From a virus (lineage: Duplodnaviria; Heunggongvirae; Uroviricota; Caudoviricetes): a DNA stretch of 23,210 nt. Positions within the stretch are counted from its first letter, which is position 1, and each line of letters opens with the position of its first letter. Below the pieces are notes generated by a model. The model saw only the letters and a list, made by a program, of their open reading frames with translations, was not told the origin of the DNA and ran no database searches. Made by a program: the position numbers and the translations under genes. This document shows positions 9,835-15,753 of this stretch, piece by piece. The stretch lies in IMG/VR virus record IMGVR_UViG_2861069343_000008. One strand, written 5' to 3'.

Positions 9835-10024
9835 GCTTCACCTCCGCAGAGGTCAAACGCAGGATGCAAAAAATCGCAGGTGCATTTCTGCATCTGTGAA
9901 GGGAGAAGAGAGTTTGGATTGTATGTGCGCATAAACGTCCCCGTTTAGCGCAGAAGTCACCGGAGTTGTTCAAGCTCCGATGACTTTATTATTACGAATT
10001 GATTTTACAAAATCAAAAGGTATG

Positions 10025-10477
10025 TTAGTGACGCGGGTCTGTTATTATGCGAGAAGGGTTTCCGTATAAAACAAGGACCTTACTTCCTTGAGTAAATAAC
10101 GGATCTTTGCCTTGAACAATGGTCATTAAATTCCCATTCTCAGTTTCGACAACATATTCCATGCCTGTTTGTTTTGTTGCTGAAGATTCGATTGCTGCCC
10201 CGGCAATACCACCAATGACTGCACCACCAACGGCACCAACGATATTAGAACGAACTCCCCCACCAAGCGCAGAACCAGCGGTTGCCCCCACGGCAGCCCC
10301 AGCAGTCCCGCCTAACGCGGAAGTCCCACTGATATCAACCCCCCTGGCACTAATAACTGTACCAGCGATAGTTCGATTAACCATGCCCACAGAGCCAACA
10401 GAATAACTATTTGGCGATATATTTTGTGCGCATCCAACCAACACTAAGAGTGGAGCAATTACGAATAATCGCTTCAT
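10025..10477 (-). CDS. Glycine-zipper lipoprotein (Pcp/SlyB-like)
   Basis: 150 aa. Lipoprotein signal MKRLFVIAPLLVLVGC, then a Gly/Ala-rich glycine-zipper segment (GTSALGGTAGAAVGATAGSALGGGV…GAVGGAVIGGIAGAAI). Start overlaps the stop of the upstream lipoprotein gene. Confidence 0.6.
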   Translation of the reverse strand: MKRLFVIAPLLVLVGCAQNISPNSYSVGSVGMVNRTIAGTVISARGVDISGTSALGGTAGAAVGATAGSALGGGVRSNIVGAVGGAVIGGIAGAAIESSATKQTGMEYVVETENGNLMTIVQGKDPLFTQGSKVLVLYGNPSRIITDPRH

Positions 10478-11034
10478 TTAGCTACCCTAACAGGAAACAT
10501 TGGACGAGAAAGATCAACACTTTCTAATGCTTGCAAGAACTGCGTTATGTTGTTTTGCACCGCGCGATTAACAGATTCGCGTGCTCGAACAATACCGTAG
10601 AATGCGTAACTGGCTGGAACAGTACCGGTAGACTCAATATCCTGCGTATATATAATATCACCATTCGCACGGTTGATTATTTCATACCTTGCAATTGCTT
10701 TAGTTGTCATTGAAACACCAAAAGCAGGAACGTCAAGAGCCAACACTTTAACATTTAAGCTAACCGTATTTGGTGAACTATCACGAAAAATAGTCATTCG
10801 GTCGAGTGCTTCCTGCAAAGATTCACGCCAAATTGGAGTTATAGCCTCCATACCAGCAGTGATATCCCCTTTCTGCTCATCTGGACGAGCAAGTGATACC
10901 GTTAATGACTTAATTTCAGCATCTATTTTTTTCTGGCTAACTCCCACGTTAGGTGTTGAAAAATTCAATGGTGGCACACTAGCGCAACCTGTTAAAGAAC
11001 CAATAATCATGGCTAATAATATTATCTTCTTCAT
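10474..11034 (-). CDS. Lipoprotein of unknown function
   Basis: 186 aa. Signal peptide with lipobox (MKKIILLAMIIGSLTGC). No family recognised by eye. Translationally coupled to the glycine-zipper lipoprotein. Confidence 0.6.
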   Translation of the reverse strand: MKKIILLAMIIGSLTGCASVPPLNFSTPNVGVSQKKIDAEIKSLTVSLARPDEQKGDITAGMEAITPIWRESLQEALDRMTIFRDSSPNTVSLNVKVLALDVPAFGVSMTTKAIARYEIINRANGDIIYTQDIESTGTVPASYAFYGIVRARESVNRAVQNNITQFLQALESVDLSRPMFPVRVAK

Positions 11035-11275
11035 AAATTTACCTTATTGTTATAACCAAAGGAATTATAAAGTAAAAAAGTTCACTATCACTAGCCATTA
11101 ACGACATCAATTTCAGAGAAACATGGTACTCATTTCCACAAATTTGACACAAGTCATTTTCATCTACATATTCCATCATACTTGATGCATATGTTATTGA
11201 AGCCTCTATCCTATCCGTTCATAATAGCAATAGTTACCCGGGTGATAGTACCTCTATGATTACTCGTCTTTCTGA

Positions 11276-11482
11276 TTGATTGGATTAAATATGCGCGCCA
11301 AAATTTATCAACTTTCGTTATGGATATTTATTTCGTTTCTAGCGATCTATGCCTTTATTATCTATAAAGGTTCTTATATTGGAGTAGCATTGCATCAAAT
11401 TGCTTGGATCATCATTATTGCCTCTGGCTTGATTGCTAGGCTAACTAAACCAAAGCAAAAACCAATTTCGTCCAATAATTAG
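11276..11482 (+). CDS. Small hydrophobic protein (two predicted TM helices), hypothetical
   Basis: 68-aa ORF in an AT-rich intergenic region on the opposite strand to neighbouring genes. Hydrophobic stretches LSLWIFISFLAIYAFIIY and IAWIIIIASGLIARL. Start codon uncertain. Confidence 0.3.
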   Translation: MIGLNMRAKIYQLSLWIFISFLAIYAFIIYKGSYIGVALHQIAWIIIIASGLIARLTKPKQKPISSNN

Positions 11483-11518
11483 ACATGTATTAAAAAATGA
11501 TATTTTTATGTACATAGT

Positions 11519-11812
11519 CTATTGAAAATTGCCGCGATAAAATGCCAACACCCGCTTCATCGCGGCACTCTGGCGACACTCCTTGAAAATCAGATTCGTG
11601 CTCACCTTTCCTTCCCGTTCTTCCCTGGTAGCGAACCGGTAATACACCGTTCGCCAGACCTTACCATCAATAACTAAGATTCCTGTCCGCGCCATTTTAG
11701 CCGCAGCCTGGTTTATGCTGGTTACTGTTGCGCCTGTTACCGCAGCAACGTCCTGCGCACAGAAGCTCTTATGCGTCCCCAGGTAATGAATAATTGCTTC
11801 TTTTCCCGTCAT
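11519..11812 (-). CDS. ren: Ren (rex exclusion-escape protein)
   Basis: 97 aa, MTGKEAIIHYLGTHKSFCAQDVAAVTGATVTSINQAAAKMARTGILVIDGKVWRTVYYRFATREEREGK… matches lambda Ren as recalled. Confidence 0.8.
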   Translation of the reverse strand: MTGKEAIIHYLGTHKSFCAQDVAAVTGATVTSINQAAAKMARTGILVIDGKVWRTVYYRFATREEREGKVSTNLIFKECRQSAAMKRVLAFYRGNFQ

Positions 11813-11887: not shown

Positions 11888-12337
11888 CTAAGTGCCTTTA
11901 CCTGATTTGGGTAAACTTTTCTTACCTGATTCAGGTAAATTTACCTCTTTCAGGTAAACTTTATTTTTCTTACCTGATTCGGGTAATGTTGACCATTCAC
12001 TGACCACATTATTAATGCCTATATTCCGCCCGCTCTGAATAAAAATCCCACGCTTTACCAGAACACTTTTTGCAGCAGAACACTTGTGCGGCAATATCCC
12101 GGTCAACTCGGAAAGTTGCTCGTTGCTCACCCAATCCAGTTTTTTATTAAAGCCATATGTTTTGCGCATGACAGCCAGGAAGACCAGAAGCTGGTGCTGT
12201 GTTAATCCGGCCAGCATTACAGCTTCCAGCAACTCATTTGCAATGCGCGTATAACCATCATCGAGATCTGCCACGCGCGGCTCCTTTTGTGCCGCATCCG
12301 GCACTGGAAAATTGAATATCTCAGCAGTGTTTGCCAT
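11888..12337 (-). CDS. O: Replication initiator O, N-terminal iteron-binding domain only (gene truncated just after the iterons)
   Basis: MANTAEIFNFPVPDAAQKEPRVADLDDGYTRIANELLEA…LLVFLAVMRKTYGFNKK… aligns with the lambda O N-terminal domain. GGGAGG Shine-Dalgarno 7 nt upstream. The ORF ends 10 nt past the last iteron and only 76 bp from ren. No O C-terminal domain and no P gene follow. Confidence 0.7.
   Translation of the reverse strand: MANTAEIFNFPVPDAAQKEPRVADLDDGYTRIANELLEAVMLAGLTQHQLLVFLAVMRKTYGFNKKLDWVSNEQLSELTGILPHKCSAAKSVLVKRGIFIQSGRNIGINNVVSEWSTLPESGKKNKVYLKEVNLPESGKKSLPKSGKGT
11898..11986. repeat. Origin iterons: four 17-bp near-palindromic direct repeats inside the O reading frame
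   Basis: TTACCTGATTTGGGTAA (11898-11914), TTACCTGATTCAGGTAA (11922-11938, perfect palindrome), TTACCTCTTTCAGGTAA (11941-11957) and TTACCTGATTCGGGTAA (11970-11986). They encode the LPESGKK repeats at the end of the ORF. Confidence 0.75.
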
Positions 12338-12423
12338 AATTCCTCCCGCAATGAGTGTGTTACGATTTGCACCTGAAAGTCGGTTCTGTTCCAGCAGACC
12401 GGCTTTCGCCATTTCTGAACCTG

Positions 12424-12963
12424 TCATATCGCCCCCAGCATGGTAGTAACCATCGCCATCAATGGACCAGCCAGATCTGGGTCCACACGAAACATCGACA
12501 CAATACCTTCACTAATTTCCTTCAGTTTCTGGTGGCGTGGTGCGTTGAGAATGACAGCCTGTTTTGCCTCACTGAGTTCCTTTTCCATTTCAGCCAACCT
12601 AGCCATGAAGCTATCCTGCTCAACCAGGTAACCGCGATATTCCAGCGGTAGTACCGCCAGAATTGCCGGGGTCAGTTCACGCACGTTATTTCGGTATTTT
12701 TCAGAATCGAATTTGTTATCGAGGAAGCGGAACAGCTTCTGGCGTGCACGGCTGACATCATCAGGGAAATCGATGGTGCCGCCGCCCTGCTCCCGATACT
12801 CATTCACAATGAGTGTGGCAACGACATCCTGATTATCTTCAGCCGACCAAGCGCGGACGGCATCACGGATTTTTTCGTGGCCTGGCACCTGTTTTGTTTG
12901 AGAACGATTTATCACCGCAGTCGGGCTAAATCCGCTAGTCTGTTGGTATGTAAGTGGTTGCAT
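12424..12963 (-). CDS. YdaT-like protein (occupies the cII position downstream of cro)
   Basis: 179-aa ORF directly downstream of the cro-like gene and upstream of O. Family assignment is a tentative recollection of Rac YdaT-type proteins. Confidence 0.45.
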   Translation of the reverse strand: MQPLTYQQTSGFSPTAVINRSQTKQVPGHEKIRDAVRAWSAEDNQDVVATLIVNEYREQGGGTIDFPDDVSRARQKLFRFLDNKFDSEKYRNNVRELTPAILAVLPLEYRGYLVEQDSFMARLAEMEKELSEAKQAVILNAPRHQKLKEISEGIVSMFRVDPDLAGPLMAMVTTMLGAI

Positions 12964-14179: not shown

Positions 14180-14929
14180 ATGGAGTGCGTAGCGAGCAGC
14201 AATAGTGCAATACCTAATGTCGTTGAAGTAATACGTCGCATCAATGAAGGTTCCACTCAGCCATTTCTTTGCAAATGTGATGATGGGCAGTTGTATGTTT
14301 TGAAGTCAAAACCATCAATGCCCCCGAAAAATCTCTTAGCTGAGTTCATTTCGGCGTGTTTGGCTAATGATATCGGCCTTCCTTTACCTGACTTTAAAAT
14401 CGTATTTGTGCCAGAGGAACTTATAGAGTACTCACCTGATCTGCAGCAACAAATTTGTACAGGATATGCCTTTGCTTCATTGTTCATTGACGGTGCAATA
14501 GCGTTAACGTTTACGCAGTCAAGAAACGAAACGATCATCCCAGTCGAACAGCAAAAATTAATCTATGTTTTTGATAAATGGATATTAAATGCAGACAGAA
14601 CGCTTACTGACAAAGGTGGAAACGTTAACATCCTTTATGACATCAGTAACGATAAGTATTATCTGATTGACCATAATCTCTCATTTGATCAGAATGCTGG
14701 ACCTGAAGATTTTTCTGTGCACGTGTACGGCCCTGGTAACCGCAAATGGCAATATGATTTAGTGGATCGCGTAGAGTACCGCCAGAGGGTCGTTAACAGT
14801 TTACACAAGCTTCCTGCTATCCTTGACGAAATTCCAGAAGAGTGGATAGTAGATGAGGAGTTTTTACCTTTTGTCTGCACTACGCTAGACAAAGGTGATT
14901 GTGATGAATTTTGGAGCGCAATAGAATGA
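14180..14929 (+). CDS. Putative kinase-fold protein (HipA / PI3-4-kinase-like motifs) in the rexA position; function unknown
   Basis: About 249 aa, first gene downstream of cI on the same strand. AAGGG Shine-Dalgarno 7 nt upstream. By-eye motifs: VLKSKP (possible ATP-binding Lys), FDKWILNADRTLTDKGGNVNIL (catalytic-loop-like) and YLIDHNLSF (DFG-like). Lower GC than flanking phage genes. Confidence 0.55.
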   Translation: MECVASSNSAIPNVVEVIRRINEGSTQPFLCKCDDGQLYVLKSKPSMPPKNLLAEFISACLANDIGLPLPDFKIVFVPEELIEYSPDLQQQICTGYAFASLFIDGAIALTFTQSRNETIIPVEQQKLIYVFDKWILNADRTLTDKGGNVNILYDISNDKYYLIDHNLSFDQNAGPEDFSVHVYGPGNRKWQYDLVDRVEYRQRVVNSLHKLPAILDEIPEEWIVDEEFLPFVCTTLDKGDCDEFWSAIE

Positions 14930-15753
14930 CAACTCCATGCCTATATAGCATCGTTCGCTATGCGCCTTATGCGGAGACTGAAGAATTCGCAAACATAGGC
15001 GTACTTCTGTGCGCGCCAAAAGAAAATTACTTTGATTTCCAGCTCACAAAGCGAAATGACTCTCGTGTAAAGAATTTTTTCCATGATGATTGTATTTTCC
15101 CTGTAGCAAAAGACTCAATACAAAGAGAACTACAGTTCGCAAAAATGCATGCGACCCAGATTGTTGGACATCAACAACTTGCACAATTCTTCAGATATTT
15201 TACAAACAAAAAAGAATCAATTTTTCAGTTCAGTTCTACGAGAGTGATTCTCAGCGAAAACCCAAAAGAAGAGCTGGCCCGCATTTACAATAAATATGTA
15301 AACCACTCTGACTACACAAAAGAGCGCCGTGAAGATGTTCTAGCCAGAGAGCTAAAACGAAGTATCGATAGAATAGATGGATTGAAGAACGTCTTCAAAC
15401 AAGCAACCATTGATGGGTATTTCGCAAAGTTCTCAATGCCATTGGTCGCCAAGAAGCATGACAGGATCCAATGTGCCATCAAACCTCTGGCATTCACTCA
15501 AGCTGAACCAGGAAAAATGATGGAGCATAGTGATACTTGGGTGATGAGAATAACTCGAGCAGCAGAAGAAAACCTGCTTTCACTTGATGACATTTTATTC
15601 ACAATTGAAACTCCTGAATCACCAAACTCAGGCCAAAGCAAAGTTATTGACATCATAAAGAGAACTATGGATGCTAAGAAAATAAATCATATACCTGCAT
15701 CCAACCACAAAGAAACTATTGATTTTGCAAAAAAAATACTTCCCCAAGTTTAA
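14926..15753 (+). CDS. DUF3037-like protein in the rexB position; function unknown
   Basis: 275 aa. The start ATG overlaps the upstream stop (ATGA), with GGAG 9 nt upstream. The N-terminus (LYSIVRYAPYAETEEFANIGVLL) matches the DUF3037 signature as I recall it. Followed by a strong terminator. Confidence 0.55.
   Translation: MTTPCLYSIVRYAPYAETEEFANIGVLLCAPKENYFDFQLTKRNDSRVKNFFHDDCIFPVAKDSIQRELQFAKMHATQIVGHQQLAQFFRYFTNKKESIFQFSSTRVILSENPKEELARIYNKYVNHSDYTKERREDVLARELKRSIDRIDGLKNVFKQATIDGYFAKFSMPLVAKKHDRIQCAIKPLAFTQAEPGKMMEHSDTWVMRITRAAEENLLSLDDILFTIETPESPNSGQSKVIDIIKRTMDAKKINHIPASNHKETIDFAKKILPQV

What the first reader, a model, noticed from the sequence alone, without database searches (positions are those of the whole stretch)
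10025..11482. Translationally coupled lipoprotein pair plus a small membrane ORF inserted between the nin module and ren
Two lipoprotein genes with clear lipoboxes (186 aa, then 150 aa with a glycine-zipper region) overlap by ATGA and sit on the early-right strand where lambda has ninA and neighbouring non-essential genes. A 68-aa two-TM ORF lies on the opposite strand in the adjacent AT-rich spacer. Envelope-targeted prophage morons at such positions often mediate superinfection exclusion by blocking DNA injection or receptor function, or alter membrane stress responses. I do not recognise the 186-aa protein family.
Basis: partly seen in the sequence, partly recalled or inferred. Interest (0 to 1): 0.5.

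Follow-up and report, generated by a model that had tools for sequence, protein, structure and literature searches.

The report
Prophage-borne SlyB-like outer-membrane lipoprotein pair
A defective lambda-like prophage of E. coli carries a small mobile two-gene cassette: a diverged copy of the outer-membrane stress protein SlyB, coupled to a partner lipoprotein from a family nobody has described, which probably work together to reinforce or remodel the host's outer membrane.

Summary
The two lipoprotein genes are real. The 186-aa gene (11034..10474) and the 150-aa gene (10477..10025) lie on the minus strand, overlap by ATGA, and have valid lipoboxes and outer-membrane sorting residues. They sit between ren and the orf33/ninB module of a ~23-kb defective prophage at attλ.

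The pair is a conserved, self-contained cassette under purifying selection, with a recurrent 4-nt overlap. It is rare (65 of ~185,000 species) and occupies 46 different contexts with no recurrent third gene. A C-terminal KPMFP tail is present in 78/78 paired and 0/7 solo copies, which suggests direct interaction.

The 68-aa opposite-strand ORF is not beyond chance and has no homologues elsewhere.

Most likely function (inferred): a SlyB-type membrane scaffold plus accessory lipoprotein that stabilises the outer membrane, carried as a lysogenic-conversion moron. Superinfection exclusion remains possible but untested.

The parts
10474..11034 (-). Gene A: 186-aa outer-membrane lipoprotein (mature 170 aa, about 18.6 kDa) from a family with no Pfam model, with an LptE/PelC/PqiC-like alpha/beta fold. 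It has a conserved N-terminal tether (PPLNFSxPNVG) and a conserved C-terminal tail ([KR]PMFP).
10025..10477 (-). Gene B: 150-aa SlyB-family glycine-zipper outer-membrane lipoprotein (mature 135 aa, about 13.2 kDa).
   Evidence: phmmer against PDB: SlyB 7ojf/7ojg, E=1.3e-14, residues 2-149 against 3-155. BLASTP 33% identity end to end. Foldseek: 7ojf_A is the only significant hit, E=5.9e-8, TM 0.60/0.64. Many homologues are named 'outer membrane lipoprotein SlyB' or carry PF13488/PF05433.
10474..10477 (-). ATGA stop/start overlap, implying translational coupling of A and B.
   Evidence: Sequence. The same 4-nt overlap occurs in Klebsiella oxytoca, Luteimonas, Stenotrophomonas (two contexts), Edaphovirga and an Alcaligenaceae genome. 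In Bordetella the genes abut.
11064..11091 (-). Candidate sigma-70 promoter of the cassette: GTGATA, 16 nt, TATAAT, ending 30 nt upstream of the gene A start.
   Evidence: Consensus scan, 10 of 12 matches; the number of such sites in the region is no greater than chance. A similar TGATAG(G/T), about 17 nt, TA-rich hexamer arrangement is seen upstream of the cassette in Edaphovirga and in diverged viral contigs. Activity was not tested.
11035..11518 (.). AT-rich (31.8% GC) spacer between ren and gene A. It belongs to the inserted cassette.
   Evidence: Composition. No match in other lambdoid phages.
11276..11482 (+). 68-aa hydrophobic ORF (63 aa from the ATG at 11291). Doubtful, and probably not a gene of the system.
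   Evidence: 11% of shuffles give an ORF at least as long. Found only in E. coli copies of the cassette. Not annotated in RefSeq.
10022..11543 (.). Approximate extent of the inserted moron cassette relative to other lambdoid phages. The left junction lies in the last codons of ren and the right junction at the stop codon of gene B.
   Evidence: Other phages match only window 9900-10021 and 11544-11600. The downstream flank is the phage 82/DLP12 orf33-orf151-ninE-rus-Q module.

Best explanation
This is a self-contained, horizontally mobile two-gene cassette encoding two outer-membrane lipoproteins that act together. Gene B is a diverged SlyB: a lipid-anchored protein whose glycine-zipper helical hairpin inserts into the outer membrane. 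In E. coli SlyB, that hairpin oligomerises into rings that enclose lipid nanodomains and outer-membrane proteins when the LPS layer is damaged. Gene A is made just before B from the same mRNA. It is an inner-leaflet-anchored periplasmic alpha/beta module of the LptE/PelC/PqiC class, and those proteins dock onto outer-membrane assemblies or handle LPS and lipid. The proposed mechanism is that A binds the periplasmic face of the B scaffold through its invariant N-terminal tether and C-terminal KPMFP tail. A would then give a SlyB-type ring an accessory or specificity subunit. The complex would reinforce or compartmentalise the outer membrane under envelope stress such as chelators, detergents/bile, cationic peptides or complement. 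In the lambdoid prophage it would be a lysogenic-conversion moron benefiting the host, expressed from its own promoter in the lysogen and by pR read-through during lytic growth. Shown here: gene reality, lipoprotein signals, SlyB homology and fold, the fold class of A, conservation of the pair and its overlap, the tail/partner correlation, mobility, and the absence of a third conserved gene. Inferred: physical A-B complex, ring formation, the stress-protection phenotype, and expression from the repressed prophage.
For: B is SlyB-like by sequence and by fold. [quoted passage not shown] A has a confident LptE/PelC/PqiC-like fold. B lies immediately downstream of A in 61 of 65 species loci and 34 of 40 viral contigs, with a 4-nt overlap in 7 loci inspected. 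The [KR]P[ML]FP tail of A is present in 78/78 paired and 0/7 solo copies, Fisher p=2e-10 without phylogenetic correction. Conservation is unusually high: mean column identity 69% for A and 65% for B across Alpha-, Beta- and Gammaproteobacteria, with low dN and saturated dS. There is no recurrent neighbour: 130 Pfam families among 148 flanking ORFs. Flank contexts number 46 among 65 species. Most occurrences are chromosomal in free-living bacteria, which favours a cell-autonomous envelope role. SlyB homologues carried and highly expressed by other mobile elements (megaplasmids) give a precedent. A promoter-like element upstream of A is shared across hosts.
Against: B is only 33% identical to SlyB, and its model is moderate (pLDDT 69). 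Ring formation may therefore not be conserved, and Yersinia SlyB paralogues already show uncertain functional equivalence. No PhoP box or other stress-regulon signal was found upstream, and the promoter match is not statistically distinguishable from chance. E. coli already has chromosomal slyB, so a plain stress-protection benefit from a second, diverged copy is not obvious. An IS5 insertion in gene A in one strain shows it is dispensable. Some family members exist without B, so A can have a B-independent role.
Confidence: 0.45

Rival explanations
1. Superinfection exclusion. The SlyB-like ring, directed by A, encloses or masks an outer-membrane phage receptor or the DNA-entry route (LamB, FhuA, OmpC, TolC, BamA or LptD). 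This would block adsorption or genome injection by competing phages, and perhaps conjugation, in the manner of Llp, Cor or TraT.
Against: No PADLOC match, and no match to any PHROG family annotated as exclusion. Only 1 of 50,697 sequenced phages carries it. Most loci are ordinary chromosomal sites, including a fixed site across the S. maltophilia complex. The TraT matches are no better than generic matches to the same fold, such as ribosome hibernation factors. The very high sequence conservation across classes is unlike the rapid diversification usual for receptor-specific exclusion proteins.
Confidence: 0.2
2. A is the outer-membrane accessory lipoprotein of a transport machine, as LptE is for LptD, PelC for PelB and PqiC for PqiAB. 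The pair would take part in LPS, phospholipid or exopolysaccharide export rather than forming a stand-alone complex.
Against: No transporter, barrel or MCE gene recurs beside the pair in about 40 independent contexts. No member hits the Pfam models of these families. The cassette moves as two genes only.
Confidence: 0.1
3. The cassette is a three-part system in which the 68-aa (63-aa) two-helix membrane ORF on the opposite strand is a regulator or inner-membrane partner of the lipoproteins.
For: The ORF exists, is hydrophobic (mean Kyte-Doolittle hydropathy 0.74), and has sigma-70-like hexamers upstream on its strand (TTGACA-17-CATATT at 11144-11172). One phage record annotates it.
Against: An ORF of that length arises in 11% of shuffles of the spacer. 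It is absent from every diverged cassette. It has no homologues beyond near-identical E. coli copies, no family hits, and is not called by PGAP.
Confidence: 0.07
4. The database label is right and the 186-aa protein is a UDP-N-acetylglucosamine acyltransferase (LpxA-like enzyme).
For: Only the propagated name in NCBI, UniRef and RAST-style records.
Against: It is a secreted lipoprotein with a small alpha/beta fold, not a cytoplasmic left-handed beta-helix. No hexapeptide-repeat or acyltransferase Pfam or NCBIfam hit.
Confidence: 0.01

Closest known systems
SlyB (E. coli outer-membrane lipoprotein; PDB 7ojf/7ojg; Janssens et al., Nature 2024, as cited)
   Same: Gene B shares the full architecture: lipobox, N-terminal beta-hairpin, glycine-zipper helical hairpin and C-terminal beta-domain. 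It aligns end to end at 33% identity (E=1.3e-14), and SlyB is the only significant fold match.
   Different: It is much more diverged than known SlyB paralogues (67-80% identity in Yersinia). It is not next to slyA, and no PhoP box is evident. It is carried by a prophage or mobile cassette, and it is always translationally coupled to a dedicated upstream partner lipoprotein, which canonical slyB lacks.
LptE / PelC / PqiC (DUF330) / CsgG-N class of outer-membrane accessory lipoproteins
   Same: Gene A has the same two-layer beta-alpha-beta-beta-beta-alpha lipoprotein fold and the same inner-leaflet anchoring.
   Different: No detectable sequence membership in any of these families (7-15% identity; no Pfam hits). 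None of their partner machines is encoded nearby. The partner here is instead a SlyB-like protein.
YajG (PF03923, uncharacterised E. coli lipoprotein; the name now given to gene A by some RefSeq records)
   Same: Similar length, lipoprotein signal and a similar first strand. hhalign gives probability 76% over the first 52 columns.
   Different: The match does not extend over the domain. None of 40 family members hits PF03923, whereas YajG itself hits it at E=3e-52. YajG has no known function, so the name carries no mechanism.
TraT (IncF plasmid surface-exclusion and serum-resistance lipoprotein; PMC11733297)
   Same: TraT is a mobile-element-encoded outer-membrane lipoprotein in which an alpha-helical membrane ring is joined to a ring of alpha/beta domains. 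The A+B pair would offer the same two elements on two polypeptides, and both give weak TraT matches.
Lambdoid lipoprotein morons and exclusion lipoproteins (Bor, Cor, T5 Llp)
   Same: Small outer-membrane lipoproteins encoded by phages at non-essential positions and acting on the host envelope (my own knowledge of these systems; T5 Llp abstract).
   Different: No homology. PHROG assigns both proteins to families of unknown function. Those systems are single small proteins, whereas this is a conserved two-protein unit found mainly outside phages.

Membership tests
SlyB family (glycine-zipper 2TM outer-membrane lipoprotein) | Lipoprotein signal peptide with outer-membrane sorting | tested here: met
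   PS51257 match, Cys16, +2 Ala. The Cys is invariant in 35 homologues.
SlyB family (glycine-zipper 2TM outer-membrane lipoprotein) | Full-length sequence homology to SlyB | tested here: met
   phmmer against PDB 7ojf: E=1.3e-14, residues 2-149 against 3-155. 33% identity.
SlyB family (glycine-zipper 2TM outer-membrane lipoprotein) | Glycine-zipper helical hairpin (Pfam PF05433/PF13488) | tested here: inconclusive
   PF05433 scores 21.1 bits against a cut-off of 24.2 for the window protein. Many close homologues carry PF13488 or PF05433. The model has helices 55-71 and 75-101 with repeated small-xxx-small motifs.
SlyB family (glycine-zipper 2TM outer-membrane lipoprotein) | SlyB fold | tested here: met
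   Foldseek: 7ojf_A E=5.9e-8, TM 0.60/0.64 over 138 columns, the only hit with E<=0.001. Model pLDDT is 69.
SlyB family (glycine-zipper 2TM outer-membrane lipoprotein) | Oligomeric rings enclosing lipid and OMPs | not testable with these tools
   Needs multimer prediction or cryo-EM.
SlyB family (glycine-zipper 2TM outer-membrane lipoprotein) | PhoPQ-regulated and adjacent to slyA (canonical locus) | tested here: not met
   The locus is in a prophage between ren and ninB. No PhoP-box match near the promoter region, and weak matches in the window are within chance.
LptE / PelC / PqiC(DUF330) accessory lipoproteins | Fold | tested here: met
LptE / PelC / PqiC(DUF330) accessory lipoproteins | Sequence-family membership | tested here: not met
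   No Pfam hit for the window protein or for any of 40 homologues, even at E<=5. No hit to solved structures by profile.
LptE / PelC / PqiC(DUF330) accessory lipoproteins | Encoded with, or dependent on, the cognate machine (LptD, PelB, PqiAB) | tested here: not met
   No such family among 148 flanking ORFs from about 40 contexts.
YajG family (PF03923) | Match to the family model over the domain | tested here: not met
   0 of 40 members hit PF03923, whereas YajG hits at E=3e-52. hhalign aligns only 52 N-terminal columns, probability 76%. A more distant relationship is not excluded.
UDP-N-acetylglucosamine acyltransferase (LpxA) | Cytoplasmic hexapeptide-repeat left-handed beta-helix | tested here: not met
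   Lipoprotein signal peptide, alpha/beta fold, and no hexapeptide or acyltransferase family hit.
Phage moron (extra gene unit inserted between conserved genes of related phages) | Present in some and absent from other closely related phages, at a sharp junction | tested here: met
   Other lambdoid phages match only the flanks, 9900-10021 and 11544-11600. 279 of 5,426 E. coli genomes carry it.
Phage moron (extra gene unit inserted between conserved genes of related phages) | Deviant base composition | tested here: met
   GC 40.5% (gene A) and 31.8% (spacer), against 50% for ren and ninB.
Phage moron (extra gene unit inserted between conserved genes of related phages) | Own promoter and terminator, with expression from the repressed prophage | tested here: inconclusive
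   A promoter-like site lies at 11091-11064 and a similar element occurs in other hosts. No convincing terminator after gene B. Expression is not testable here.
Known anti-phage defence or exclusion proteins | Match to a PADLOC model or to a PHROG family annotated as exclusion | tested here: not met
   No PADLOC hits at E<=1. phrog_12521 and phrog_13877 are of unknown function.
TraT surface-exclusion lipoprotein | Homology or a clear fold match | tested here: not met

The most novel reading that the evidence does not exclude
A and B assemble into a hetero-oligomeric outer-membrane 'cage plus adaptor', a two-polypeptide analogue of the TraT cork. The SlyB-like ring would be targeted by A to particular outer-membrane proteins, sequestering phage receptors or DNA-entry machinery. 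That would be a previously unknown, transferable mechanism of superinfection or surface exclusion based on OMP encapsulation.
Probability: 0.12. Interest if true: 0.8.

Novelty: new variant of a known kind. Interest (0 to 1): 0.5.

Why it matters
SlyB was only recently shown to build protective rings around lipids and proteins of the outer membrane, and how such rings are targeted or regulated is still open. This locus shows a diverged SlyB that is always made together with a dedicated partner lipoprotein from an undescribed family of about 1,000 sequence clusters with no Pfam model. The unit moves between bacteria and into phages. If the two proteins form a complex, it would be the first SlyB-type scaffold with an accessory subunit, and a compact two-gene system for studying how nanodomain scaffolds are specified. 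It would also add a new class of envelope-modifying lysogenic-conversion genes, carried by about 5% of complete E. coli genomes, many of them clinical isolates. On the practical side, the propagated annotation 'UDP-N-acetylglucosamine acyltransferase' is wrong and should be corrected.

Tried and rejected
- Pfam, NCBIfam and PADLOC scans of the 186-aa protein gave nothing meaningful. The only NCBIfam hit was IglE at E=0.039, over the signal peptide and tether only.
- A profile search against PDB sequences gave nothing.
- The Foldseek viral library gave only low-TM matches.
- The afdb50 fold library was unavailable.
- A literature search by accession or phage name found nothing. No paper describing a SlyB-like gene with a partner lipoprotein was found.
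- A search for a conserved third gene found none.
- A PhoP-box scan was negative.
- dN/dS could be computed for only two comparisons, because dS is saturated in the rest.
- Spanin (Rz/Rz1) reading rejected: both proteins are outer-membrane lipoproteins in separate frames, the locus is far from the lysis cassette, and the prophage has its own lysis genes.
- LpxA reading rejected (see the membership test).
- The 68-aa ORF and a 46-aa ORF (11039-11179) in the spacer were considered and set aside for lack of conservation.
Full report
**Observation**

The minus strand carries an ORF of 186 aa (11034..10474) and one of 150 aa (10477..10025). The stop of the first overlaps the start of the second in ATGA.
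- Both proteins satisfy the PROSITE lipoprotein rule, with LTGC (Cys17) and LVGC (Cys16).
- Both have a basic n-region and Ala at +2. By the established +2 sorting rule this means outer-membrane rather than inner-membrane localisation.
- Upstream lies ren (phrog_142). Downstream lie orf33 and NinB/YbcN, followed by ninE, ybcO, rusA, ylcG and Q. All are on the same strand.
- Both genes are under strong purifying selection. Against Klebsiella, Edaphovirga and a diverged viral copy, dN is 0.11-0.29 while dS is saturated. dN/dS is 0.08-0.09 in the two comparisons where it could be computed.

The third element of the finding is the 68-aa ORF at 11276..11482 (+). It exists but is not convincing as a gene.
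- 11% of dinucleotide-preserving shuffles of the 484-nt, 32% GC spacer yield an ORF at least that long.
- It is missing from all diverged copies of the cassette.
- Its only database relatives are near-identical E. coli copies of this same locus.
- RefSeq does not call it.

**Genomic setting**

The window is a ~23-kb defective lambdoid prophage at the ybhC/attλ site of E. coli. The two genes occur in 279 of 5,426 complete E. coli genomes. They are always chromosomal and at least 99% identical. They are in only one of 50,697 sequenced phages, Escherichia phage PhiR30_1, and essentially never on plasmids.

Other lambdoid phages match only window 9900-10021 and 11544-11600, so the inserted unit spans about 10022-11543. 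It is AT-richer than its flanks: 40.5% GC for gene A and 31.8% for the spacer, against about 50% for ren and ninB. This fits the definition of a moron, except that no terminator of its own was found.

**Identity of the 150-aa protein**

- phmmer against all PDB sequences finds E. coli SlyB (7ojf/7ojg) at E=1.3e-14, aligned over residues 2-149 against 3-155. Identity is 33%.
- An AlphaFold model (pLDDT 69) shows a beta-hairpin, two long helices (55-71 and 75-101) rich in small-xxx-small motifs, and a C-terminal beta-domain.
- Foldseek against the PDB returns SlyB as the only significant hit (E=5.9e-8, TM 0.60/0.64).

It is therefore a diverged SlyB-family protein. It is far more distant than the SlyB paralogues described in Yersinia, which are 67-80% identical.

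**Identity of the 186-aa protein**

- No Pfam model matches it or any of 40 homologues.
- NCBIfam and PADLOC give nothing meaningful.
- PHROGs places it in phrog_12521, of unknown function.
- The model is confident (pLDDT 84.5, pTM 0.78), with topology beta-alpha-beta-beta-beta-alpha.

Two database names do not hold up.
- 'UDP-N-acetylglucosamine acyltransferase' is incompatible with the signal peptide and the fold.
- The newer RefSeq name 'YajG family lipoprotein' is not supported at the family-model level. PF03923 is hit by YajG at E=3e-52 but by none of the 40 members, and hhalign aligns only the first 52 columns.

An exhaustive profile search finds 997 cluster representatives at 50% identity with E<=0.001. 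This is a real, moderately sized, unnamed family.

**The pair is a unit**

- Family-A loci were recovered from 65 species: Gamma-, Beta- and Alphaproteobacteria, plus a few Verrucomicrobia and Desulfobulbaceae. They were also recovered from 40 viral contigs.
- A SlyB-like gene lies immediately downstream in 61 of the 65 species loci and 34 of the 40 viral contigs.
- In seven loci inspected at gene level the 4-nt overlap is conserved.
- Flanks fall into 46 unrelated groups among the 65 species. One shared site is confined to the S. maltophilia complex, where it is a normal chromosomal position.
- The 148 flanking ORFs from about 40 contexts fall into 130 different Pfam families. The commonest are S24 peptidase/HTH repressor-like proteins, integrases and SRAP. 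No transporter or barrel recurs.

So the cassette is self-contained, accessory and mobile, and it is not specifically a phage gene.

**Evidence for direct cooperation**

Family A is unusually conserved, with mean column identity of 69% across classes. That includes its N-terminal tether (PPLNFSxPNVG) and its C-terminal tail. The tail motif [KR]P[ML]FP is present in all 78 distinct copies that have the SlyB-like partner. It is absent from all 7 distinct solo copies (Photorhabdus, Lampropedia and several viral contigs). Fisher p is 2e-10, not corrected for phylogeny. This is the pattern expected if the tail is the interface with the partner. A co-fold test could not be run.

**Mechanism**

According to the literature read here, SlyB oligomerises into rings that enclose phospholipid/LPS nanodomains and OMPs when the outer membrane is stressed.
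- It interacts with BamA, LptD, OmpF/C/A and TolC-type proteins.
- On TolC it may compete with a lateral partner lipoprotein.
- SlyB homologues are also carried and highly expressed by megaplasmids.

The fold class of A comprises lipoproteins that dock under outer-membrane assemblies or bind LPS or lipid. My best-supported reading is therefore a two-subunit outer-membrane complex. B would be the membrane-inserted scaffold, and A a periplasmic accessory or specificity subunit bound through its tail and tether. The complex would reinforce or compartmentalise the outer membrane. In the prophage it would act as a lysogenic-conversion moron.

A sigma-70-like promoter (GTGATA-16-TATAAT, 11091-11064) lies 30 nt upstream of gene A. 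A similar TGATAG element with a TA-rich -10 is seen upstream of the cassette in other hosts. Activity is untested, and no PhoP box is present. Complex formation, ring formation and the phenotype are all inferences.

**Rivals**

- Superinfection exclusion by receptor encapsulation is attractive but unsupported. The points in its favour are the position next to ren, SlyB's ability to enclose receptors, and weak TraT-like matches for both proteins. Against it, there is no defence or exclusion family match, the distribution is predominantly non-phage, and the conservation is atypical of receptor-specific exclusion factors.
- A role as accessory of a transport machine is disfavoured by the absence of any conserved neighbour.
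- The three-gene version with the 68-aa ORF, and the acyltransferase label, are rejected for the reasons above.

**Novelty and verdict**

I found no paper or database entry describing this cassette. One member belongs to a known family (SlyB), and the other to an undescribed family with a known fold class. The new feature is their obligate, translationally coupled pairing and mobility. I rate it a new variant of a known kind and of moderate interest. The finding is real, and its interpretation is half right: the moron and envelope-targeting parts hold, and the stress-response option is favoured. The small ORF should be dropped.

Noticed in passing
window 11889-11890 (ORF 11888-12427): This is the junction of a 1,097-bp deletion relative to intact copies of the prophage (L001 13992-15088). 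The deletion removes the C-terminal part of replication gene O and most of P, leaving an O'-'P fusion ORF of 179 aa. This copy of the prophage should be replication-defective.
   Followed up: partly
whole window; L001 1764-24992: The prophage is a ~23-kb remnant at ybhC/attλ. It retains int, xis, the exo-bet-gam-kil region, the immunity region, nin, Q, the lysis genes and nohD. It has only fragments of tail-fibre genes and no head or tail genes.
   Followed up: partly
window ~14180-15753 (L001 17380-18953): A HipA-family kinase gene overlaps a DUF3037 gene, between the cI-like S24 repressor and kil. It looks like a toxin or defence-type moron in the immunity region.
   Followed up: no
window 12424-12963: A YdaT_toxin-domain protein (PF06254, E=1e-29) occupies the cII position and overlaps the truncated O gene by ATGA.
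   Followed up: no
window ~6135-7811 (L001 8236-9912): YbgA-family and lipocalin-family genes sit between Q and the lysis cassette, another moron position. In phage PhiR30_1 the same slot holds an OmpD-type porin gene.
   Followed up: no
NZ_CP098858.1 (hits H1 and H60), about window 10763: An IS5 element is inserted inside the 186-aa gene in strain CUVET20-1573, showing the gene is dispensable in at least one lineage.
   Followed up: partly
window 11064-11091; L010 ~5950-5990; L094 ~7950-7990: A shared upstream element (TGATAG(G/T), about 17 nt, then a TA-rich hexamer) lies 40-50 nt before the start of gene A in E. coli, Edaphovirga and diverged viral contigs. This suggests the cassette travels with its own promoter.
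   Followed up: partly
L047 7268-8049 (Photorhabdus caribbeanensis): Next to a solo homologue of the 186-aa gene is a DNA repeat array, seen as ORFs with repeated FLSCLYGSE / VHCRTGSLE peptides. It may be a CRISPR-like array.
   Followed up: no
L108 8611-9042 (viral contig, solo homologue): Where the SlyB-like partner is missing, a different 143-aa secreted protein follows the 186-aa homologue, and the homologue's C-terminal tail has lost the KPMFP motif.
   Followed up: partly
window 11039-11179 (-): A 46-aa ORF with a CxxC motif lies immediately upstream of gene A in the AT-rich spacer. It has no family hits, and its conservation was not examined separately.
   Followed up: no
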